From assembly GCA_016285345.1 (NCBI GenBank), contig JAEEQN010000004.1, forward strand, positions 29,339 through 93,338: 64,000 bases of DNA. The letters are read 5' to 3'. Positions 18,820 to 53,630 of this stretch are shown here, piece by piece (the stretch's first letter is position 1; every line of letters begins with the position of its first letter). The stretch is from Victivallales bacterium. Lineage in GTDB: Bacteria; Verrucomicrobiota; Lentisphaeria; Victivallales; UBA1829. The position numbers and the translations under genes are program-made. The notes beneath the pieces were generated by a model. That model saw nothing but the letters and a program-made list of their open reading frames with translations, was not told the DNA's origin and made no database searches.

Positions 18820-19026
18820 GCGACTTCCGCTTCAACTGTTCGTATGCGGCATAGGTTTCTGCCTGTGCCGCTTTTTCTTGCCTCCGAGTGATTTTGTTCA
18901 AAGAAAATATGCATTCGTGCAAAAAGTATATGGGAAAACGCCCGGAACGTGCTATTGTATGTTCATCAGAAAACCGTATTCTCAAAATCATGCTCCGGCA
19001 TACGGGGCGAACAACAGGAGAAAACC

Positions 19027-20703
19027 ATGAGTCCGAGCAAGAAAAACGCCGCTAAGAAGACTGTTGCGAAGAAGTCCGAAGCGAAAAAGACTGTCGCCGC
19101 GAAGAAGTCCGCGCCGAAGAAAGCCGCCGCGAAAAAGGCTGTTCCCGAAGTCTATCCGGGCGAGACCGCGCCGGAACGCCTCATCAAGGCCGACTTCAAG
19201 GCTGTGAAGGGCGAGAGGTCCGATGTCTGGCGCGACTGCGTCGGGGCGGGGCGCATCGGCGAAGGCCTGCGCGATACATGGCGCAAGCAGCTCGCGAAAT
19301 GCAAGAAGGAACTCGGATTCCGGTATCTGCGCGCGCACGGTCTCTTCCACGACGAGATGCGCGTGTACAGCGAGGACAAGGCGGGCAATCCGGTGTACAA
19401 CTTCATGTACATCGACGATGTATTCGATTTCCTGCTCTCCATCGGCGTCAAGCCGTTCGTCGAGCTCAGCTTCATGCCCGAAAAGCTCGCCTCCGGCAAG
19501 ACCACGATCTTCTGGTGGAAGGCCAACGTGACTCCGCCGAAGAAGCACGAACGCTGGGCCGACCTCATCCGCGCGACCGTTCAGCACTGGACCGAGCGCT
19601 ACGGCGAGGACGAGGTGAAGACGTGGCGGTTCGAGGTGTGGAACGAGCCGGATCTGGACGTCTTCTGGGATCCCGGCAAGAAGACCACCATGCTCGACGC
19701 CTACCTCGAACTCTACAAGTACACGGCGCGCGCGGTCAAGTCCGTGAACAAGGCGTATCCGGTCGGCGGTCCCTCCGGCGCCGGGCTCGACTTCATCGCT
19801 CCGCTCGTGAAATACTGCCGCAGGAACCGTCTGCCGCTGGATTTCATCTCGTTCCACCAGTACGGATTCGACCCCGAAAACCCGGCCCTGCCGAAGATCG
19901 ACCGGTTCGGCGGCAACTACATCTACCTCATGAAGAACCTCCGGCACGTGGCCGACTGTTTCAACAGGAAGCTGGAGGACATCCGCAAGAACCTCCGTTG
20001 CGACGTTCCTGTTTACATCACCGAGTGGCACGCGTCGCCGTCTCCGGTCGACCCGGTGCACGATTCGTATTTCGCCGCGCCGTTCATCCTGGAACAGCTC
20101 CGCAACACGGAAAAGATGGCGTGCATGAGCTTGTGGACGTTCACGGACATCTTCGAGGAATGCGGACCCGCGCCGCGTCCGTTCCACGGCGGATTCGGCC
20201 TCATCACGTTCCAGAGCATCCCGAAGGCAGCCTACCGCGCGTATCAGTGCCTGGCGGCGCTCGGCCCGACGGAACTCGTCTCCAGCGACGCGTCGTCGTA
20301 CGTCTGCAAGGACGCGAACGGCGGCGTGCAGGCGCTCTTCTGGGACCTCAGCCATCCCACGCAGGGCGGCAGGATCAGCAACCAGGACACCTTCTTCGAT
20401 CCGCATCCGGCGAAAGATAAAGGCCATGCGCTGTTCAGCATCACCGGGCTCAAGGCCGGCGAATACGACCTGCGCGTGACCCGGATCGGCTACCGCGCGG
20501 GCGACGCGTATTCCGCGTGGCTGGAGGAGGACGGCGCGAAGACGGACATCAGCCGGGAGGAGATCGCACGCCTGACGCGCGTTTCCCAGCTCCGCCCGAT
20601 GTACCGTGCGCAGGTCACGGTCATGAAGGGCGAGGAGTTCCAGCTCGGCCTGGACATGAAACAGAACGACGTTTATTTCGTGGAGCTGATCCCGCTGAAA
20701 TAA
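19027..20703 (+). CDS. glycoside hydrolase family 39 (beta-xylosidase-like)
   Basis: FRYLRAHGLFHD, PFVELSFMP, FEVWNEPD, DFISFHQY, ITEW, FHGGFGL; CAGGAG RBS. Confidence 0.9.
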   Translation: MSPSKKNAAKKTVAKKSEAKKTVAAKKSAPKKAAAKKAVPEVYPGETAPERLIKADFKAVKGERSDVWRDCVGAGRIGEGLRDTWRKQLAKCKKELGFRYLRAHGLFHDEMRVYSEDKAGNPVYNFMYIDDVFDFLLSIGVKPFVELSFMPEKLASGKTTIFWWKANVTPPKKHERWADLIRATVQHWTERYGEDEVKTWRFEVWNEPDLDVFWDPGKKTTMLDAYLELYKYTARAVKSVNKAYPVGGPSGAGLDFIAPLVKYCRRNRLPLDFISFHQYGFDPENPALPKIDRFGGNYIYLMKNLRHVADCFNRKLEDIRKNLRCDVPVYITEWHASPSPVDPVHDSYFAAPFILEQLRNTEKMACMSLWTFTDIFEECGPAPRPFHGGFGLITFQSIPKAAYRAYQCLAALGPTELVSSDASSYVCKDANGGVQALFWDLSHPTQGGRISNQDTFFDPHPAKDKGHALFSITGLKAGEYDLRVTRIGYRAGDAYSAWLEEDGAKTDISREEIARLTRVSQLRPMYRAQVTVMKGEEFQLGLDMKQNDVYFVELIPLK

Positions 20704-20750
20704 GGAGGACAAGTCCTCCACTGAGGCAGTGCCGGGCTTCGCTCCGGCAC
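20704..20750 (+). repeat. 47-bp three-hairpin REP-like element, copy after the GH39 stop
   Basis: GGAGGACAAGTCCTCCACTGAGGCAGTGCCGGGCTTCGCTCCGGCAC; homologous to 34898-34944 and 51194-51386. Confidence 0.9.
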
Positions 20751-20761
20751 GAGACTTTTCC

Positions 20762-20808
20762 AAAAATGAATCCCGTGCCGTTTGTCGCGGTACGGGATTC
20801 TTTCTTTC
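20762..20808. terminator. bidirectional intrinsic terminator
   Basis: GAATCCCGTGCCG / CGGTACGGGATTC stem, A run before and T-rich run after, between convergent genes. Confidence 0.7.
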
Positions 20809-20827
20809 TGTTTTTTGATGGAGAAGA

Positions 20828-21664
20828 TTATTCCTCAGCGGAAGCCTGCGGCTTTGCGTCCTTTTTCTCCGCCTCGGCCTCTTCGATGGCCTCTTTTGCC
20901 TCCTCAATGATTTCCTTCGCCTCCTCGGCTTCCCTGGCTTCTTCCTTGGCTTCTTCGGCCTGATACGCCTTCAGCCATTCCTGGAAATCGCCCTCGGGAT
21001 TGAGCGGGATGCGGAGAACGCCGTTTTCATCGGGGATATTGGTATCGGCGTCCTGCGCCTTTTCAACAGGCTTTTTGTCCGGTTTCTGCGCCGGTTTCTT
21101 CGCGGGCTTCTTCGCCTCGGCTTTCTTTTCGCCGGATTTTGCCTCGGCTTTCTTCGGTTCGAGTACCGGCGGCGTGTATTTCTTCACGAAGCCGTCGAGG
21201 TATTCGGCGTAGCGTTTCGGCGGGTCGAAGTCCATGATCTCGTTGATCTTCCGGCGATGCTTCTCCGCGCTGCCGTCCGCCTTGTGAAAATCAATGTAGA
21301 TATCCCCGTTCGCATCCAGCAGCAGGGCGGTCGGCAGAATGGTGATGCCGAACTGCGTGCGGAGCTGCCTGTTCTGCTGGGAGATGTTCTTTGGCTGAAG
21401 ATGGGACGCGTTCGGGAAGTCGATTTTCAGGAGCACGAGCTTTTTGTCGGCGTAGTCCTGAAATTTTCTCTGGCTGAAAATGGTCCGTTCGAGGCTGCGG
21501 TCGGCGGCGGCGTCCGAATTTGTGAACAGGATATAGATCGGGCGCTTTGTTTTCAGCGATTCGGCTTTGGCTTTTTCAAAATCGGTGAACCACTCGCCCG
21601 CGGAGAGAGCGGGGACGAGCACGGCTGTTGTCAGGAAACAGCAAAGGGCGAAAAAGAATTTCAT
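20828..21664 (-). CDS. exported thioredoxin-fold protein lacking CxxC
   Basis: Signal peptide; W.TDFEKA, ILFTNSD, VLLKIDFP, FGITILPTALLLDANG; charged low-complexity tail. Confidence 0.7.
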   Translation of the reverse strand: MKFFFALCCFLTTAVLVPALSAGEWFTDFEKAKAESLKTKRPIYILFTNSDAAADRSLERTIFSQRKFQDYADKKLVLLKIDFPNASHLQPKNISQQNRQLRTQFGITILPTALLLDANGDIYIDFHKADGSAEKHRRKINEIMDFDPPKRYAEYLDGFVKKYTPPVLEPKKAEAKSGEKKAEAKKPAKKPAQKPDKKPVEKAQDADTNIPDENGVLRIPLNPEGDFQEWLKAYQAEEAKEEAREAEEAKEIIEEAKEAIEEAEAEKKDAKPQASAEE

Positions 21665-32830: not shown

Positions 32831-34897
32831 ATGGCCGATACCGTTAAAACACTGACCGTCAACGGACGGGAAGTCACGTTCACGAATGAACGCAACCTCC
32901 TGGAAGTCATCCGCAAAGCCGGGATCGAGATCCCGACCTTCTGCTACCACTCCGAACTGAGCATCTACGGCGCCTGCCGCCTCTGCCTCGTCCTCGTCGA
33001 GGGCAAAGGCATCATGGCGTCCTGCTCCACCGCCCCCGCGCCCGGCATGGTCGTCCACACGGACACCAAGGAAATCCGCGACATGCGCAAGATCAGCGTG
33101 GAACTCCTGCTCGCCAACCACAACCGCGAATGCCCGACCTGCGCCCGCAACGAGAACTGCACCCTGCAGCGCATCGCCCACCAGCTCGGCGTCCAGGACA
33201 TCCGCTTCAAATCCGTGAAGAAGGACGACCCGATCGACTTCTCCTCCCCGTCGCTCGTCCGCGACCCGAACAAGTGCGTGCTCTGCGGCGACTGCGTGCG
33301 CGTCTGCTCCGAACTCCAGGGCATCGGCGCGATCGACTTCTCGAACCGCGGCTCCAACGCCCGCGTGGCCCCGGCCTTCGGCGCTTCCCTCGGCGCGGTC
33401 GAGTGCGTGAACTGCGGCCAGTGCGCCGCCGTCTGCCCCACCGGCGCGATCGTCCCGAAACAGGACCGCAACCGCGTGTGGGACGCCCTGTACGATCCCG
33501 GCAAGACCGTCGTGGTCCAGATCGCCCCGGCCGTCCGCGTGGCGCTGGGCGAATACTTCGGCGCGAAGCCGGGCGAGAACGTGGCCGGCAAGCTCGTCGC
33601 CGCCCTGAAGCTCATGGGCTTCAAACACGTCTATGACACCAGCTTCTCCGCCGATATGACCATCTTCGAGGAAGCCACCGAGCTCATCGACCGCATCGCC
33701 AACGGCGGCACGCTCCCGATGTTCACCAGCTGCTGCCCCGCCTGGGTCAAGTTCGCCGAGATCTACTACCCCGAAATGATCCCCCACATCTCCAGCTGCC
33801 GTTCCCCGCAGGCCATGTTCGGCTCCATCGCCAAGAAGGTCCTGCCCGAACAGCTCGGCTGCAAGCGCGAAGACCTTGTGGTCGTCTCCATCATGCCCTG
33901 CACGGCGAAGAAGTTCGAGGCCCAGCTTCCGAAGTTCGCCGTCGACGGCAAGCCGGAAGTCGACATCGTCGTGACCACCAGCGAAGTCCAGCGCATGATC
34001 AACTCCATGGGCATCAAGCTCAATGAGCTCCAGCCCGAAGCGTTCGACATGCCCATGGGATTCGCCACCGGCGGCGGCGTCATCTTCGGCGCGTCCGGCG
34101 GCGTCATGGAAGCCGCGCTCCGCTACGCGGTCGAAAAGCTCGACGGCAAACCGCTCGCATCCGTCGACTTCAAGGCCGTCCGCGGCATGAACACCCTCAA
34201 GGAAGCCACCGTGACCGCGGCCGGCAGGGAAATCCGCGTGGCGGTCGTCCACGGCCTCGCCAATGCCAAGCGCCTCATCAACGACGTCCGCTCCGGCAAG
34301 GCCCACTACGACTTCGTCGAAGTCATGGCTTGCCCCGGCGGCTGCATCTCCGGCGGCGGCCAGCCCGTCGGCGTCACCGACGCGATCCGCGTCCAGCGCC
34401 AGCAGGGCCTCTACGCGGCCGACAAGTCCCAGCAGGTCCAGAAGAGCCAGGACAACTTCCTGGTCGACCAGTGCTACAAGGACCACATCGGCGGCAAGCC
34501 CGGCTCCCACGAAGCGCACCACCTGCTGCACACGGTCTACCAGAACCGCAGCCAAATCTTCGACGCGAAGATTCCGATCATGCGCGGCACCGCCCGGAAC
34601 CGCTTCATGATCACCGTCACGATCTGCGCCAAGCAGGACAACTGCCCCGGCCAGCTCCTGATCGGCATGATCTCCGAATACGTCCGCAACAAGAACTACA
34701 CGGACAAGGTCGACATGGACGCCGCGTTCTCGTCCCGCCCCGAACAGGACGGCACGATCTGCGTGACCATCGGCGACGAAGTCGTCGAGCGCACGAAGTT
34801 CAGAAACGCCCTGAACACGCTGGAACAGCTCCAGAACCAGGCTGCGTTCGAGACGATCAAGAAGAAGATCGACGAAAGCGTCGCCAAGCTCGGCTGA
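32831..34897 (+). CDS. hydA: [FeFe]-hydrogenase catalytic subunit (group A3 type, HydA)
   Basis: Canonical L1 TSCCPAW, L2 MPCTAKKFE, L3 EVMACPGGCISGGGQP; N-terminal [2Fe-2S], His-ligated and 2x[4Fe-4S] domains. Confidence 0.95.
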   Translation: MADTVKTLTVNGREVTFTNERNLLEVIRKAGIEIPTFCYHSELSIYGACRLCLVLVEGKGIMASCSTAPAPGMVVHTDTKEIRDMRKISVELLLANHNRECPTCARNENCTLQRIAHQLGVQDIRFKSVKKDDPIDFSSPSLVRDPNKCVLCGDCVRVCSELQGIGAIDFSNRGSNARVAPAFGASLGAVECVNCGQCAAVCPTGAIVPKQDRNRVWDALYDPGKTVVVQIAPAVRVALGEYFGAKPGENVAGKLVAALKLMGFKHVYDTSFSADMTIFEEATELIDRIANGGTLPMFTSCCPAWVKFAEIYYPEMIPHISSCRSPQAMFGSIAKKVLPEQLGCKREDLVVVSIMPCTAKKFEAQLPKFAVDGKPEVDIVVTTSEVQRMINSMGIKLNELQPEAFDMPMGFATGGGVIFGASGGVMEAALRYAVEKLDGKPLASVDFKAVRGMNTLKEATVTAAGREIRVAVVHGLANAKRLINDVRSGKAHYDFVEVMACPGGCISGGGQPVGVTDAIRVQRQQGLYAADKSQQVQKSQDNFLVDQCYKDHIGGKPGSHEAHHLLHTVYQNRSQIFDAKIPIMRGTARNRFMITVTICAKQDNCPGQLLIGMISEYVRNKNYTDKVDMDAAFSSRPEQDGTICVTIGDEVVERTKFRNALNTLEQLQNQAAFETIKKKIDESVAKLG

Positions 34898-35027
34898 GGA
34901 GGACAAGTCCTCCACTGAAGCAGTGCGCGGCTCCGCTCGCGCACATAGCTGAAGTGCCGAATAGTGCTCTCGCGTAGCAGAGCACAGCATCGACACTGCT
35001 TGCAGTGGCCCGGCTCCGCCCGGGCAC
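34898..35027. repeat. cluster of three-hairpin REP-like elements (full copy, inverted partial, direct partial)
   Basis: 34898-34944 full copy; 34964-34985 reads GTGCTCTGCTACGCGAGAGCAC on the minus strand; 34994-35027 CACTGCTTGCAGTGGCCCGGCTCCGCCCGGGCAC. Confidence 0.85.
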
Positions 35028-48887: not shown

Positions 48888-49230
48888 AACCTAAGCCGTT
48901 CGCGTCTCTGCGGTGAGGGAAATCTACCTTACTGAAAAAGAAGAGGGAGGAACCATTTACTCCCCCCCCAAAAAAGGTTTTTGCCGTTCGCATTTCTACG
49001 GTGAGGTAAATCAGCCCTGTTCGCCCCATTTTTAACCTCAGCCGTTTGCGCCTCCGCGGTGAGGTGAATCCACCTCGACAATCTAAAAAACTTAGCCGTT
49101 CGCGTCTCAGCAGTGAGGTGAATCCACCTCATTCTTCTAAAAACTCAGCCGTTCGCGTCTCAGCGGTCAGAGAAGAATCAGTACCGCAATCTAAACTCTT
49201 CTGCTATTCGCGTCTCGCGGTCAAGTAATC
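48888..49230 (+). repeat. array of six degenerate direct repeats (core GCCGTTCGCGTCTCNGCGGTSAGG...AATC)
   Basis: Core copies start at 48895, 48983, 49041, 49095, 49148, 49203 (periods 88, 58, 54, 53, 55). Confidence 0.9.
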
Positions 49231-49436: not shown

Positions 49437-49988
49437 ATGAGAGAACATGATTTTCGGGATTTGAAGGCAAAGGCCGTGGAACAGTTGTTTCAGGTCGGCA
49501 AATGCTATGAAACTGGCGATGGCGTCGACAAGGATGAGGTGGAAGCCGTCAGGTGGTACCGTATGGCGGCGGAGCAGGGTTCCGCCGATGCGATGTTCGA
49601 ACTCAGCAAGTGCTATACATTCGGCATTGGTGTGAGGCGGAACCGCGCAACGGCGTTCAAATGGCTGAGCAAGGCCGCGGAACGCGGTCATTCGAAGGCG
49701 ATGGTCCAGCTTGGCAAGAGGTGTACACACGAATACGAAGCAGATTATAATCCGCGCAAAGCCGTCAGATTGTTCCGCACGGCGGCGGAAAAAGGGGATG
49801 CGTGGGGCATGTTTCACCTCGGAGAGTGCTACGCGGACGGCATCGGTGTGAAGAAAGATTATGACGCGGCGTATTTATGGTTCTGCCGTGCCGCGCTTGC
49901 CGCCCCTGACGACGAAATGCTGTATCAATCCGTCCAAAACAAAATCTATGACCCGAACCTGAAAGAAATTCTGGGAAAGAAAAAATAG
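49437..49988 (+). CDS. SEL1-like repeat protein
   Basis: About four repeats such as G.CYETGDGVDKDEVEAVRWYRMAAEQG, LGECYADGIGVKKD; no signal peptide. Confidence 0.9.
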   Translation: MREHDFRDLKAKAVEQLFQVGKCYETGDGVDKDEVEAVRWYRMAAEQGSADAMFELSKCYTFGIGVRRNRATAFKWLSKAAERGHSKAMVQLGKRCTHEYEADYNPRKAVRLFRTAAEKGDAWGMFHLGECYADGIGVKKDYDAAYLWFCRAALAAPDDEMLYQSVQNKIYDPNLKEILGKKK

Positions 49989-50006: not shown

Positions 50007-50125
50007 CCGCTTCGCTGGGGGCGCACATCCGCGCGCCTCGGTGAACTCGTTTGCTCGAGTTCGACAGATTACTTGAACGCAGAGACGCGAACGGCGAGAG
50101 GTTATTATTATCGCGAACGGCAAAC
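50007..50125 (-). repeat. inverted copy of the array unit plus extended structured arm
   Basis: Minus strand AACCTCTCGCCGTTCGCGTCTCTGCGTTCAAGTAATC (50103-50067); second partial copy GCCGTTCGCG near 50112-50121. Confidence 0.8.
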
Positions 50126-50181
50126 GTTTTGATGGTTGCGGTGAAAGAGAGGTGGGGGGGCCATTAAAAATTTCTCGTGGG

Positions 50182-50286
50182 TCAGGATTTTTTCGGGCGC
50201 TTGATGCTGGAACGGGAGGGGGCTCGGTGCGGGAATCAGGATTTTTTCGGGCGCTTGATGCTGGAACGGGAGGGGGGCTCGGTGCG
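50182..50286. repeat. tandem duplication of the last ~50 bp of hrpB
   Basis: 50182-50231 and 50236-50286 are identical except for G5 versus G6. Confidence 0.9.
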
Positions 50287-52878
50287 CGGGTCCTCGGGCC
50301 AGTTGTGCTTGGGGTAACGGCCGCGCATGTCTTTCCGCACGAGGAAATACGAGCCGTCCCAGAATTCGTCCAGGTTGCGCGTGATCTGCACGGTGCGCAT
50401 GGCGGGCGAAAGCAGGTCGAACACGAGCGGGACGCGTCCGCCGGCGATCTTCGGCGAATGCGCGAGTCCGAAGACCTCCTGAAGCTTCACTCGCACCATG
50501 GGGGCGGCGGGGTCGGAATAGTCGATGGCGATGTGCGAGCCGCTCGGGACCTCGAAGCGTTCGGGCGCGAGCGAGTTCAGCGTGGACTGGGCTTTCGGCG
50601 GGAGCATGGCGGCGAAGATCGAACGGTAATCCAGGTCCGCGAGCTTGTCAAGGCGGCTGACGCCGCCGAGGTGCGGCGCGAGCCAGTCTTCGAGCGTGTC
50701 CAGCAGGTGCTGTTCCGAGCAGTCGGGGAAGCCCTCGCAGCCGTGCACGTGCAGGAACTGGATGCGCCGGAGAAATTTGAGCTGAGCGTGGGTGATGCCG
50801 AGCGAGGCGAACCCGCGTTTGCGGACGGCGGCGATCAGAAGGACCGCGGTGTCGTCGCCGGGGCGCAGATTGGACAGCTTGCGTTCAATCGTGAGCGAAC
50901 CGACCGCCTTCACGTTGAACACGCGGACGCACAGCGCATCGTCGTCCCAGACCGTTTCGCGGCGCGTGCGGAAGAGGTCCGGCAGGGCGGCTTCGAGCTC
51001 GGCGATGTCGAGCGGGAGCGCGAGGCGGATCGTGGGCTGTCCGGAGAGTCCGCCGGAATCCGCCACGGCGAGGTATTCCGAATCGCGGAGCGGGTCGCGT
51101 GCGCCGAGCTTCGCGGTCATGCCGTTGGAGAGCTGGTATTCGGGGCGGTCGCCGCCGGTGCGACGTCGCGCGATACGGTCGGGGTATGCCGCGGCAAGGA
51201 CAAGTCCTTGACTGATATTGTGCCGGGCTTCGCTTCCGGCACGGGGAGGCGGGGCCTCCACTGCGGTTGTGCCGGGCTTCGCTCCGGCACGGGAGGACAA
51301 GTCCTCCACTGCGGCAGTGCCCGGCTTCGCTCGGGCACGGGAGGACAAGTCCTCCACTGCGGCGGTGCCGGGCTTCGCTCCGGCACGAGGAAGGGCGGCT
51401 TCGAGTTGGGAAACGGCCTGTCGGATACGGGAAAGCGTCTGACGGTCCGCAGGCAGGGCGGACGCCTTGTCGAGCACGGCGAGGCGTTCTGCGAGGTCGG
51501 CGGTCTGCGGATTGACGAGCGGATCGCGGTCGGACAGGATTGCGGCAATCTGAAGCGCCTCCCGGCGGAGTCCGTGCTCGTCGGCGAAGAGAATGGCGTT
51601 CGCGAGGCGCGGATGCACGGGCAGACGGTGCAGGAGCTTGCCGTGCGGCGTGATCTGCCCGGTCTTTGCCGAGATCGCGCCGAGTTCGGTCAGCAGGTCG
51701 AACGCGTAGTCGAGCTTGACCTCGGGCGGCGTCGTCATCCAGGGCAGGGCGGCGGCCTTTTCGCGGACCACGCCCCAATGCGCCAGCTCCAGCGCGAGCT
51801 CGGTGAGGTCGGCATGTTCGATCTCCGGCGGGGCGAAATCCGGCATGGCGTTCTGTTCGTATTCGTGCCAGAGACGGATGCAGACGCCCGGCGCGGTGCG
51901 TCCGGCGCGCCCCCGGCGCTGTTCGGCGGACGCCTTCGATATCTTGACCGTGCGGAGCTGGTCCATGCCGGACGCGGGGGAGAAGAACGGCATGCGCGCG
52001 AGGCCGGAGTCGACGACGATGCGGATGCCGGGGATGGTGATGCTGGTCTCGGCGACGGGCGTGGCGAGGATGATGCGGCGGCGGTCCGACGGCGCGAACA
52101 CGCGGTCCTGTTCGGCGGCGGAGAGCGAGCCGTAGAGCGGGAGGACCTCGAAATCGTGGCGCATGGAGGCGAGTTCGGCGGCGGTGCGGCGGATTTCCGC
52201 CTCGCCGGGGAGAAAAACGAGCGCGTCGCCTTCGTGTTCGCGCATGGCGTCCAGCACGACCGAGGCGGCGTGCGGTTCGACGGGAGCACCGGGCTTCAGG
52301 GGCGCGTAGCTCACGCCGACCTCGAAACAGCGTCCCGAGGCGTTGACGATCTCGGTATCGTTTCCGAGCAACCCGGCGGCGGAATCCGCATCGAGCGTGG
52401 CGGACATGAGCGCGATGCGGAGGTCGTCGCGGAGGACGGAGCGCGCGTCAAGCGTGAGTGCGAGCGCGAGATCGGCGTGAATGCTGCGTTCGTGGAATTC
52501 GTCGAAAATGACGGCGGAGACGCCTTCCAGCGACGGGTCGCGCTGGAGCATGCGCGTGAGCAGCGCCTCGGTCACGACCTCGATGCGCGTGTCCGCCGAA
52601 ACGAGCGTCTCGAAGCGCGTCCGGTAGCCCACGGTCTTCCCCGGCGGTTCGTTCAGGAGCGACGCCATGCGCCGTGCCGCGGCGCGCGCGGCGATGCGGC
52701 GGGGTTCCAGCATGACGATCTTCCCCTCGGGCAGCACGCCCGGTTCGAGCAGGGCGAGCGGCACGACAGTGCTTTTGCCCGCGCCGGGTTCCGCCGTGAT
52801 GACCAGCGGACGGCAGGCGCGCGCGGCGTCCGCGATCCGCGGCAGGACGGCGTCGACGGGGAGACCGGAGCGGATCAT
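50236..52878 (-). CDS. hrpB: ATP-dependent RNA helicase HrpB
   Basis: AEPGAGKST, LEPRRIAAR, DEFHERS, MSATL, AETSITIPG, QRRGRAGR, AYPDRIA, GRYPKHNWP. Confidence 0.95.
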   Translation of the reverse strand: MIRSGLPVDAVLPRIADAARACRPLVITAEPGAGKSTVVPLALLEPGVLPEGKIVMLEPRRIAARAAARRMASLLNEPPGKTVGYRTRFETLVSADTRIEVVTEALLTRMLQRDPSLEGVSAVIFDEFHERSIHADLALALTLDARSVLRDDLRIALMSATLDADSAAGLLGNDTEIVNASGRCFEVGVSYAPLKPGAPVEPHAASVVLDAMREHEGDALVFLPGEAEIRRTAAELASMRHDFEVLPLYGSLSAAEQDRVFAPSDRRRIILATPVAETSITIPGIRIVVDSGLARMPFFSPASGMDQLRTVKISKASAEQRRGRAGRTAPGVCIRLWHEYEQNAMPDFAPPEIEHADLTELALELAHWGVVREKAAALPWMTTPPEVKLDYAFDLLTELGAISAKTGQITPHGKLLHRLPVHPRLANAILFADEHGLRREALQIAAILSDRDPLVNPQTADLAERLAVLDKASALPADRQTLSRIRQAVSQLEAALPRAGAKPGTAAVEDLSSRARAKPGTAAVEDLSSRAGAKPGTTAVEAPPPRAGSEARHNISQGLVLAAAYPDRIARRRTGGDRPEYQLSNGMTAKLGARDPLRDSEYLAVADSGGLSGQPTIRLALPLDIAELEAALPDLFRTRRETVWDDDALCVRVFNVKAVGSLTIERKLSNLRPGDDTAVLLIAAVRKRGFASLGITHAQLKFLRRIQFLHVHGCEGFPDCSEQHLLDTLEDWLAPHLGGVSRLDKLADLDYRSIFAAMLPPKAQSTLNSLAPERFEVPSGSHIAIDYSDPAAPMVRVKLQEVFGLAHSPKIAGGRVPLVFDLLSPAMRTVQITRNLDEFWDGSYFLVRKDMRGRYPKHNWPEDPRTEPPSRSSIKRPKKS
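51194..51386 (+). repeat. four tandem copies (48-bp period) of the three-hairpin element inside hrpB
   Basis: Units at 51194-51242, 51243-51290, 51291-51338, 51339-51386; translated as RAGAKPGTAAVEDLSS-type 16-aa repeats. Confidence 0.92.
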
Positions 52879-53630
52879 TCTGCGAGGCGCTTTTTGATCT
52901 CGGCGAGGAGTTGAGGCATGACCTCGCCCGCCTTGCCGCGGATGTAGATATCAGTGATGTGCCCGGTGAACGCGGATTTCTCGGGATTGACCTCGATGAC
53001 GACCGCGCCGCGGCGTTTCGCCGTGTGCGGCACCATGCAGGCGGGCATGACCTCGCCGGTGGTCCCGCTCACAAGGCACACGCTGCACGATTCGGCGTCC
53101 GCGAACGACTGGTCCATGGCGTGTTCGGGGATGCCTTCGCCGAAGAAGACGATGTCCGGCTTCAGCAGGGCGGCGCACTTCGGGCAGGACGGAGGATTCC
53201 CCGCGAGGAGGTCGGCGGTCGGCGGCCCGGAGAACGAGCACCGGGTGCAGCGGAGGCGTCCGAGCGTGCCGTGGAATTCGATCACGTTCCGCGAGCCCGC
53301 CGCCTGGTGGAGATTGTCGATGTTCTGCGTGACGAGCGAGAACGCGACCCCCATCTTTTCCAGTTCGGCGAACGCGAGGTGGGCGGCGTTCGGGGCGCAC
53401 TTGCCCCAGAGATCGTAGAAGATGGAGCGGATGCGGTTCCAGGACTCCACCGGGTGCCGCATGAAGTGGTCGATCTCGAAGAAATCCGGGTTCACCTGCT
53501 GCCAGAGGCCGCCCGCGCCCCGGAACGGCGGGATGCCGCTTTCGACCGAGACTCCGGCGCCGGTGAAGATCAGCATGTTCTTTTTTTCGGCGATGATGTC
53601 CGCCGCGGACTGGATGGGATCGGGATTCAT
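52875..53630 (-). CDS. cobB: NAD-dependent protein deacylase (sirtuin)
   Basis: FTGAGVSVESGIPPFRG, TQNIDNLH, EFHG, CxxC..CxxC, KPDIVFFGE. Confidence 0.9.
   Translation of the reverse strand: MNPDPIQSAADIIAEKKNMLIFTGAGVSVESGIPPFRGAGGLWQQVNPDFFEIDHFMRHPVESWNRIRSIFYDLWGKCAPNAAHLAFAELEKMGVAFSLVTQNIDNLHQAAGSRNVIEFHGTLGRLRCTRCSFSGPPTADLLAGNPPSCPKCAALLKPDIVFFGEGIPEHAMDQSFADAESCSVCLVSGTTGEVMPACMVPHTAKRRGAVVIEVNPEKSAFTGHITDIYIRGKAGEVMPQLLAEIKKRLAE

What the first reader, a model, noticed from the sequence alone, without database searches (positions are those of the whole stretch)
51194..51386. The intergenic hairpin element has entered hrpB in frame and expanded into 16-aa repeats
Four tandem copies (48-bp period, antisense to the mRNA) encode RAGAKPGTAAVEDLSS-RARAKPGTAAVEDLSS-RAGAKPGTTAVEAPPP-RAGSEARHNISQGLVL in a normally short linker before AYPDRIA, and all helicase motifs remain intact. 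The copies differ by compensatory changes. The most degenerate copy's hairpin (CAAGGACTTGTCCTTG on the coding strand) encodes native-looking QGLVL, hinting at insertion at a look-alike target. This parallels Rickettsia palindromic elements as a source of new protein sequence, here inside an RNA helicase gene.
Basis: partly seen in the sequence, partly recalled or inferred. Interest (0 to 1): 0.75.

Follow-up and report, generated by a model that had tools for sequence, protein, structure and literature searches.

The report
Hairpin repeat translated inside HrpB helicase
A small hairpin-forming DNA repeat that normally sits just behind genes in this rumen bacterium has landed in frame inside a helicase gene and grown to four copies, adding a floppy 64-residue loop; it is a clean example of a phenomenon already known from Rickettsia and other bacteria.

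Summary
Window 51197-51387 is a 48-bp x 4 tandem array inside an 880-aa HrpB gene on the minus strand, read as four 16-residue repeats.

Each unit is a double-hairpin, REP-like element. It has at least 114 copies in this 2.78-Mb rumen Lentisphaeria genome. Most lie just 3' of genes, and many touch the stop codon.

Among the 16 genomes of the genus, the same HrpB site carries 0, 1, 2, 3 or 4 copies. More distant HrpBs have only a short unrelated linker. The AlphaFold model is confident throughout except for a loop at residues 502-553.

A second gene, a PMT_2 glycosyltransferase, carries the element antisense and in the same reading frame, with 0, 1 or 3 copies among congeners.

The "degenerate" fourth copy is a different subfamily member read in a shifted frame. 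No cognate transposase was found.

REP and RPE elements inside genes are already described, including in HrpA of Opitutus terrae (PMC3733652). This is therefore a new member of a known kind. The scan had already noted a REP-like family in rumen Lentisphaeria on other DNA (e1-3191654).

The parts
50236..52878 (-). hrpB coding sequence (880 aa, P0001), a DEAH/RHA helicase with the HrpB C-terminal domain
   Evidence: ORF and translation. Pfam HrpB_C, Helicase_C, DEAD and HA2_C. E. coli HrpB 6eud/6heg is the best match by sequence and by fold.
51195..51243 (+). Element copy A' (49 nt, ACTGATAT spacer subtype, one extra T in the hairpin-2 loop). It is read antisense as RAG then SEARHNISQGLVL (residues 546-561). 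Its first hairpin encodes GLVL, the start of helix 557-564.
   Evidence: The same spacer subtype occurs at intergenic copies C35 90156, C36 42241 and C43 74726.
51244..51291 (+). Element copy B (hairpin 1 is GGAGGCGGGGCCTCC), read as RAGAKPGTTAVEAPPP (residues 530-545)
   Evidence: The same hairpin-1 subtype occurs at intergenic C25 22434 and C30 10474.
51292..51339 (+). Element copy C, read as RARAKPGTAAVEDLSS (residues 514-529). Its hairpin-2 stem carries a compensated C/G swap relative to copy C'.
51340..51387 (+). Element copy C', read as RAGAKPGTAAVEDLSS (residues 498-513)
20704..20751 (+). Intergenic single copy of the same element. It starts directly after the TAA stop of ORF 18949-20703(+) and lies upstream of a separate terminator-like hairpin.
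   Evidence: It folds as two hairpins, -25.3 kcal/mol, z -3.1.
34898..34945 (+). Intergenic copy directly after the TGA stop of ORF 32831-34897(+)
34963..35004 (-). Weaker element copy in the opposite orientation in the same intergenic region
   Evidence: nhmmer hit C38 64301-64342(-), E 0.0031

Best explanation
A lineage-specific REP-like repeat was inserted antisense into the loop-coding linker of hrpB, between the last ratchet-domain helix and the helix that begins the next domain. The unit is about 48 nt: hairpin 1, a 9-nt spacer, then hairpin 2 (GTG-N4-GCTNCGCN-N4-CAC). Its normal home is the first bases after a stop codon, in the sense orientation of the upstream gene. In hrpB it took the place of the native linker of about 16 residues. 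The array then changed copy number in steps of 48 nt, which is 16 codons, most likely by replication slippage or unequal recombination, possibly with gene conversion from dispersed copies. This gives alleles with 1 to 4 units in different species of the genus. The insertion survives because the unit is open in all six frames, and antisense frame 1 yields a cysteine-free, hydrophilic peptide rich in Ala, Gly, Pro, Thr and Ser. That peptide is modelled as a low-confidence surface loop and leaves the helicase fold intact. Copy A' is read in another frame. There its first hairpin happens to encode GLVL, which stands in for the hydrophobic start of the following helix.

Shown: the family, its genomic context, the orthologue series, the intact domains, the low-confidence loop and a second invaded gene.

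Inferred: neutrality, slippage as the expansion mechanism, and the order of events.
For: - The array and its reading are confirmed.
- The family has 114 nhmmer hits at E<=0.01 in the genome. Hairpin 2 was parsed in 103 of the 114 and shows 27 distinct stems, with covariation at stem pairs 4-7. The unit folds as two hairpins, z about -3 on either strand.
- Context: of 108 non-genic copies, 77 have a co-oriented gene upstream, and 30 of those start within 2 nt of its stop codon, 15 at distance 0.
- The element pattern is found in 14 of 16 genomes of the genus and in 0 of 15 other genera searched. The reversed-pattern control gives 0.
- HrpB site states among the 16 genus genomes: 4 copies in G000; 3 in G004; 2 in G003, G013, G010, G006 and G015; 1 in G001, G009 and G011; 0 in G005, G014, G012, G002, G007 and G008. 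G018, from another genus, also has 0.
- The element HMM gives no hit at E<=10 in the 0-copy loci.
- Of 33 distant HrpBs, 29 showed the AYPDRIA anchor, and none of those carries the repeat.
- AlphaFold: mean pLDDT 88.4; only residues 502-553 and the last three residues fall below 50. The top fold matches are E. coli HrpB 6eud and 6heg.
- Second case: PMT_2 protein P0002 carries RAVAKQGTASEEDLSS, antisense and in the same frame. The site is empty in G014, G006, G004 and in outgroups G007 and G008. It holds one copy in nine species and three tandem copies in G002. There is an adjacent 6-residue deletion in G012 and G011.
- Independent metagenome contigs tile the hrpB array.
- In a search of 5.8 billion proteins with residues 498-561, all 14 hits are HrpBs of 848-865 aa.
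Against: - The 1-copy and 0-copy HrpB alleles are equally long, so a simple insertion does not explain the site. At least one more event is needed, such as deletion of the native linker or a templated replacement.
- Presence and absence do not follow the poorly resolved hrpB trees. G014 (0 copies) groups with 2-copy species at 96% bootstrap in the 5' nucleotide tree. Recurrent gain and loss, or allele exchange between species, must be invoked.
- No transposase for the family was found, so how it moves is unknown.
- No contig spans the whole array.
- Nothing shows that the protein is made or active.
- Two differences inside the gene keep pairing: CGAGGAC/GTCCTCG against CAAGGAC/GTCCTTG between species, and the C against C' stem. 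This leaves room for some constraint on structure.
Confidence: 0.85

Rival explanations
1. The repeats are a selected feature: a copy-number-variable flexible tether, or a nucleic-acid signal inside the mRNA, that tunes HrpB. Under this reading the same peptide was recruited in the glycosyltransferase for a function, not merely tolerated.
For: - The same orientation and reading frame are used in two unrelated genes.
- In G011 the hairpins are broken, yet 11 of 16 residues of the peptide are kept.
- The frame is preserved in all 10 element-bearing HrpB alleles and all 10 filled PMT_2 alleles.
- Two compensated stem differences lie inside the gene.
Against: - Copy number ranges from 0 to 4 among species whose HrpB is otherwise 89-96% identical.
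- The region is modelled with pLDDT below 50.
- Most orthologous changes in the genic hairpins are uncompensated, in G013, G006, G004, G011 and G002.
- Two insertion events are too few to establish a bias in orientation or frame.
Confidence: 0.1
2. The array, or its copy number, is an assembly artefact: a short-read assembler threaded dispersed repeat copies into hrpB.
For: - The genome is a metagenome bin of 66 contigs, 83% complete.
- Depth over 51274-51355 rises several-fold because the unit is multicopy, and contigs break inside the array.
- No contig spans all four copies.
Against: - Ten other species' assemblies carry in-frame copies at the identical site, with the reading frame preserved.
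- An X4 contig from another study runs without gaps from the flank through three copies into the fourth, and X9 and X3 pieces bridge the B/C and C/C' junctions.
- Public proteins of 848 and 865 aa from several sources carry 2 and 3 copies.
Confidence: 0.04
3. The direction is reversed: the repeat arose as a coding duplication in hrpB, and the dispersed copies derive from the gene.
For: The gene holds the largest perfectly phased array seen in this genome.
Against: - 109 of the 114 copies lie outside the two invaded genes, with their own stop-codon-hugging context and many stem subfamilies.
- The array is a mosaic of three subfamilies that also exist elsewhere in the genome.
- Genomes of the genus that lack the family (G007, G008) also lack the HrpB repeat.
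Confidence: 0.01

Closest known systems
Intragenic GTAG/CGTC-tagged REPs (Di Nocera et al. 2013, BMC Genomics 14:522, PMC3733652; I read passages and supplementary file 3)
   Same: - Short GC-rich palindromic repeats, mostly downstream of genes and often touching stop codons.
- Stem subfamilies with alternative complementary residues.
- Some units lie entirely inside ORFs for known proteins. Clusters encode 43-82 residues in Thauera and R. conorii.
- The PVC bacterium Opitutus terrae has the most intragenic GTAG REPs, including two in HrpA (Oter_0009, supplementary file 3).
   Different: - This unit is a two-hairpin module of about 48 nt, arrayed head to tail rather than as inverted dimers.
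- GTAG is only the commonest of several tetranucleotides (37 of 103), and it overlaps the first stem base.
- No RAYT was found.
- The host phylum is Lentisphaerota.
- A 0-to-4 copy series at one orthologous site is documented here.
Rickettsia palindromic elements (RPE), cited in PMC3733652 as its refs 13 and 14; the primary papers are recalled, not read here
   Same: Palindromic repeats inserted in frame in genes that remain functional, adding peptide segments in loops. No dedicated transposase is known.
   Different: - There is no sequence relation.
- RPE-1 is longer, and RPEs carry a CGTC tag according to PMC3733652.
- The host is an obligate intracellular alphaproteobacterium.
- Here the element also forms in-frame tandem arrays, and it is mainly a 3'-of-gene element.
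E. coli REP/BIME arrays (recalled; summarised in PMC3733652 and PMC3184786, the latter seen only as a search listing)
   Same: Hairpin repeats in the 3' untranslated regions between genes, often in arrays, thought to act on mRNA stability or termination.
   Different: BIMEs alternate inverted REPs and are linked to RAYT. Here the arrays are direct, and the units are translated in two genes.
E. coli HrpB (PDB 6eud, 6heg)
   Same: Same domain order and fold. Query residues 2-454 align to 6eud 3-452, and 550-873 to 485-808. These are the top Foldseek matches.
   Different: The stretch between those blocks is 33 residues in E. coli and 95 here. The excess is the repeat array.

Membership tests
REP / REPIN elements mobilised by RAYT | Short GC-rich imperfect palindrome present in many dispersed copies | tested here: met
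   114 copies. Hairpin 2 has a 7-9 bp stem with covarying pairs. The fold is -25.3 kcal/mol, z -3.1.
REP / REPIN elements mobilised by RAYT | Predominantly extragenic, downstream of genes or between convergent genes | tested here: met
   108 of 114 copies lie outside called genes. 77 follow a co-oriented gene and 54 lie between convergent genes (the gene calls are my own crude caller).
REP / REPIN elements mobilised by RAYT | Conserved unpaired GTAG (or CGTC) tetranucleotide at one end of the palindrome | tested here: inconclusive
   The tetranucleotide ending on the first stem base is GTAG in 37, GCAG in 24, GTTG in 12 and ACAG in 10 of 103 parsed copies. This is degenerate and overlaps the stem.
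REP / REPIN elements mobilised by RAYT | Cognate RAYT (Y1 transposase) gene flanked by the repeats | tested here: not met
   PF01797 is not found in G000, which is 83% complete. In the genus 5 of 16 genomes match. The two intact genes are IS200-type TnpA with at most one element nearby, and the other three are fragments. 'Not found in those searched' is not the same as absent.
REP / REPIN elements mobilised by RAYT | Inverted pairs (REPIN doublets) as the main arrangement | tested here: not met
   The arrays are head to tail: C41 10389-10518, C52 10905-11097, C64 29910-30043, C65 24056-24239 and the hrpB array. Only a few opposed pairs were seen.
MITE | Terminal inverted repeats and a target-site duplication | tested here: not met
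   The unit's ends (GGAGG... and ...GGCACG) are not inverted copies of each other. Comparing the filled and empty PMT_2 sites shows 46 nt replacing 1 nt, with no duplication.
Rickettsia palindromic elements | In-frame insertion in genes for known proteins | tested here: met
   HrpB and the PMT_2 protein. This is a likeness of behaviour only.
Rickettsia palindromic elements | Sequence family membership (RPE consensus, CGTC tag) | not tested
   No RPE sequence was fetched. No Rfam family matches the element.
HrpB (DEAH/RHA helicase with HrpB_C) | RecA1/RecA2 motifs, HA2 ratchet and HrpB C-terminal domain | tested here: met
   Pfam, invariant motif columns, PDB 6eud at 5.8e-158 and Foldseek at 1.5e-78.

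The most novel reading that the evidence does not exclude
The family is a REP-like element without a RAYT. It targets the base right after stop codons, and its sense strand is a working 3'-end RNA signal. Inside genes only antisense, cysteine-free-frame copies can survive. On this reading the gain, loss and 16-codon stepping at the HrpB and PMT_2 sites, which are patchy against the gene trees, reflect ongoing site-specific mobility or selected length tuning rather than passive slippage.
Probability: 0.12. Interest if true: 0.65.

Novelty: new member of a known kind. Interest (0 to 1): 0.4.

Why it matters
It gives a compact natural series: 0, 1, 2, 3 and 4 units at one orthologous site, plus a second gene with 0, 1 and 3. 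The series shows stepwise how a selfish hairpin repeat becomes protein sequence. It includes a unit read in a shifted frame whose hairpin supplies the start of a helix. It extends intragenic REP-type elements to Lentisphaerota. It also offers ready-made alleles for testing whether loop length matters in a DEAH/RHA helicase. For genome annotators it is a caution that tandem nucleotide repeats inside helicase genes of these rumen bins are real, not frameshifts. It does not open a new category.

Tried and rejected
- Rfam gave no family for the element: nothing at gathering threshold over the window, and only chance-level hits at E<=1 around 20600-20900.
- RAYT search: PF01797 is absent from G000. 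The genus hits are IS200-type TnpA or fragments and are not flanked by the element.
- Other invaded genes were sought with the 64-residue peptide across the genus. All other candidates with long open frames (L141, L143, L144, L145, L146, L147, L148, L126, L119) proved to be intergenic arrays lying in shadow frames or upstream of the true start codon. In G000, C64 63731, C52 23391, C43 38635, C40 1767, C35 90067 and C30 10474 were rejected for the same reason.
- The protein and nucleotide trees of hrpB were too poorly resolved to polarise gains and losses.
- I tested whether the native 0-copy linker is a decayed element. The element HMM gave no hit at E<=10, so I dropped the idea.
- RNA run X15 holds contigs over hrpB at 90-99% likeness and a 1-copy joint. 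This does not show transcription of this genome's 4-copy allele.
- My first two scripts for parsing hairpin 2 failed because of regex errors and were rewritten.
- In one search the two folds of the genic copy were mis-registered by 2 nt and are not used.
Full report
**Observation**

Tandem Repeats Finder reports a 48-bp period, 4.0 copies, 84% matches and score 259 at window 51197-51387. The repeat finder gives start-to-start spacings of 49, 48 and 48.

The array lies inside ORF 50236-52878 on the minus strand, 880 aa. Residues 498-561 read RAGAKPGTAAVEDLSS, RARAKPGTAAVEDLSS, RAGAKPGTTAVEAPPP, RAGSEARHNISQGLVL, followed by AAAYPDRIA.

The protein is HrpB:
- Pfam finds HrpB_C (3.4e-49), Helicase_C, DEAD and HA2_C.
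- E. coli HrpB 6eud is the best solved relative, at 5.8e-158.
- The Walker A, DEFHER, SAT and QRxGRAGR residues fall in invariant columns of a 36-sequence alignment.

Each half of the unit matches four places in the window, against 0.00 expected in shuffles.

**What the unit is**

The same 48-nt unit stands alone at 20704-20751, directly after a TAA stop. A variant sits at 34898-34945, directly after a TGA stop.

The window belongs to a 2.78-Mb, 66-contig bin with 58.9% G+C. Its nearest named relatives are rumen "Lentisphaeria bacterium" MAGs.

An HMM built from 74 regex-found seeds finds 114 copies at E<=0.01. The unit has three parts:
- Hairpin 1, mostly GGAGG-N-CCTCC, with other self-complementary variants.
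- A spacer of about 9 nt, ACTGCGGTA or similar.
- Hairpin 2, GTG-N4-GCTNCGCN-N4-CAC.

Hairpin 2 was parsed in 103 of the 114 copies. It shows 27 distinct stems. The first three pairs are invariant and pairs 4-7 covary. An intergenic unit folds as two hairpins at -25.3 kcal/mol, z -3.1, and almost as well on the other strand. No Rfam family matches.

With my own crude gene calls (1854 genes, 81% coding), the context is as follows:
- 108 of 114 copies lie outside genes.
- 77 follow a co-oriented gene.
- 30 of those 77 begin within 2 nt of its stop codon, 15 at distance 0.
- 54 lie between convergent genes.

Several intergenic arrays are head to tail, with periods of 41-50 nt.

The element pattern occurs in 14 of 16 genomes of the genus, with 7 to 52 matches each. 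It occurs in none of 15 other genera of the family and order that were searched, and the reversed-pattern control gives zero. The two genus members without it are G007 and G008, the most divergent ones.

This is a REP-like family.

**The HrpB site across relatives**

HrpB was found in all 15 congeners. I extracted the stretch from SQL to DRIA.

| Copies at the site | Genomes |
|---|---|
| 4 | G000 |
| 3 | G004 |
| 2 | G003, G013, G010, G006, G015 |
| 1 | G001, G009, G011 |
| 0 | G005, G014, G012, G002, G007, G008, and G018 (another genus) |

The 0-copy alleles carry an unrelated, more A+T-rich linker, for example RASKNSTSSNATADIAIII. The element HMM gives no hit at E<=10 in these loci.

Of 33 distant HrpBs fetched from public genomes, 29 showed the AYPDRIA anchor. 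None of these has the repeat; their consensus is G.LLA.AYPDRIA. The refutation condition "distant orthologues share this segment" therefore fails.

Searching 5.8 billion proteins with residues 498-561 returned 14 proteins. All are HrpBs of 848, 850 or 865 aa, which are the 2-copy and 3-copy forms.

**Anatomy of the array**

In element orientation the arrays are:
- G000: A'-B-C-C'
- The 2-copy species: A'-B
- G004: C-B-C
- G001 and G009: C
- G011: a diverged C with broken stems, in which 11 of 16 residues are kept

B (hairpin 1 GGAGGCGGGGCCTCC) and A' (spacer ACTGATAT) are subfamilies that also occur between genes. So the compensatory differences between neighbouring copies largely reflect variation that already existed in the family. 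That is compatible with separate insertions or with gene conversion from dispersed copies.

A' has one extra T in its loop, giving the 49-nt spacing. After RAG it is therefore read in antisense frame 3 (SEARHNISQGLVL) rather than frame 1. Its left arm overlaps the position of the two hydrophobic codons that the 1-copy alleles keep (VL, IV or VV), so the whole stays in frame.

The unit is open in all six frames. Only sense frame 2 and antisense frame 1 are free of Cys and Trp.

Among orthologous genic copies most changes break pairing (G013, G006, G004, G011). One difference keeps it: CGAGGAC/GTCCTCG against CAAGGAC/GTCCTTG.

**Insertion or replacement**

The 1-copy and 0-copy alleles have the same length, 35-36 residues between the anchors. 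The element therefore stands in place of the native linker.

The second invaded gene suggests how this can happen. There the element is a net +45 nt insertion, and in two species the six codons next to it have since been deleted. Insertion followed by adjacent deletion would give the HrpB pattern. This is inference.

The hrpB trees are poorly resolved. G014 (0 copies) groups with 2-copy species at 96% bootstrap in the 5' nucleotide tree. Recurrent gain and loss, or allele exchange between species, is therefore needed. I could not decide between them.

**Second invaded gene**

Among the 114 copies, five are truly intragenic. Four are in hrpB. One is in G000:C52:69523-71691, a 723-aa membrane protein with Pfam PMT_2 and PMT.

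There the element is again antisense and in the same frame, read as RAVAKQGTASEEDLSS. The site varies across the genus:
- Empty in G014, G006 and G004, and in the outgroups G007 and G008.
- One copy in nine species.
- Three tandem copies in G002.
- G015 has only a gene fragment and was not scored.

Comparing filled and empty sites shows no target duplication and no terminal inverted repeats.

**Structure**

AlphaFold2 on the 36-sequence alignment gives mean pLDDT 88.4 and pTM 0.77. Only residues 502-553 and the last three residues fall below 50. The loop lies between helix 479-495 and helix 557-564, which reads QGLVLAAA. The best fold matches are E. coli HrpB 6eud and 6heg.

By sequence, query residues 2-454 align to 6eud 3-452 and 550-873 to 485-808. 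The excess length therefore lies exactly at the array.

The element-encoded GLVL sits where distant HrpBs have G.LL. Whether it guided the insertion or was selected afterwards cannot be told.

**Read support**

Only Logan contigs were available, and no contig spans all four units.
- In X4, from another study, a 5301-nt contig covers 50702-51363 without gaps. That is the flank, three units and 24 nt of the fourth. Another contig covers 51367-51900.
- X9 and X3 pieces bridge the A'/B, B/C and C/C' junctions.
- A joint that skips 51193-51291, with nine other letters in between, corresponds to the 1-copy allele of a relative. It appears in X3 and in the RNA library X15.

**Mobilisation**

No Y1 transposase was found in G000. 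In the genus 5 of 16 genomes match PF01797. The two intact genes are IS200-type TnpA and are not flanked by the element. The tetranucleotide before hairpin 2 is GTAG in only 37 of 103 copies. Membership in the RAYT-mobilised REP family is therefore not shown, although the behaviour is REP-like.

**Comparison with what is known**

I read passages and supplementary file 3 of Di Nocera et al. 2013 (PMC3733652). The paper describes:
- REPs located inside genes in several species.
- Clusters encoding 43-82 residues in Thauera and R. conorii.
- The in-frame Rickettsia RPEs, as its references 13 and 14.

The primary RPE papers are recalled, not read. PMC3184786 and PMC10969869 were seen only as search listings.

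The finding is therefore a new member of a known kind. Its particular merits are the copy-number series at one orthologous site, the shared frame in two genes, the frame-shifted unit that contributes a helix start, and the strong stop-codon adjacency of the family.

**Verdict**

Interest is moderate (0.4). This is a textbook-quality example rather than a new principle.

Noticed in passing
G000:C52:69523-71691 (L149 523-2691), outside the window: A PMT_2-family membrane glycosyltransferase carries one copy of the same element, antisense and in the same reading frame (RAVAKQGTASEEDLSS). Congeners have an empty site, one copy, one copy plus an adjacent 6-residue deletion, or three tandem copies.
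   Followed up: yes
Genome-wide; in the window at 20704 and 34898: The element tends to start on the base right after a stop codon (TAA or TGA followed by GGAGG) of a co-oriented upstream gene: 30 of 77 such copies lie within 2 nt. Hairpin 1 pairs a Shine-Dalgarno-like GGAGG with CCTCC. Whether this reflects target choice or a 3'-end RNA function is open.
   Followed up: partly
window 50182-50289: A 54-bp tandem duplication (1.9 copies, 98% matches) duplicates the last 17 codons and the stop codon of hrpB immediately downstream of the gene. The second copy lies beyond the stop and differs by one G in a G-run.
   Followed up: no
window 48980-49220 and 50060-50125: A different repeat with a 54-bp period (2.4 copies, 84% matches) has the core GCCGTTCGCGTCTCAGC and a GTGAGGTGAATCCACCTC hairpin. 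Related pieces occur in opposite orientation on the other side of the small gene at 49438-49988. It is unexplained.
   Followed up: no
window 50152-52914 (+): A 920-aa open frame runs antisense across the whole of hrpB. It is a shadow frame of this G+C-rich gene, not a gene. Such frames made several intergenic element arrays look intragenic.
   Followed up: yes
L167 (G009:C99) and L168 (G015:C9): Intact IS200-type TnpA genes are present in only 2 of the 16 genomes of the genus, with fragments in three others.
   Followed up: partly
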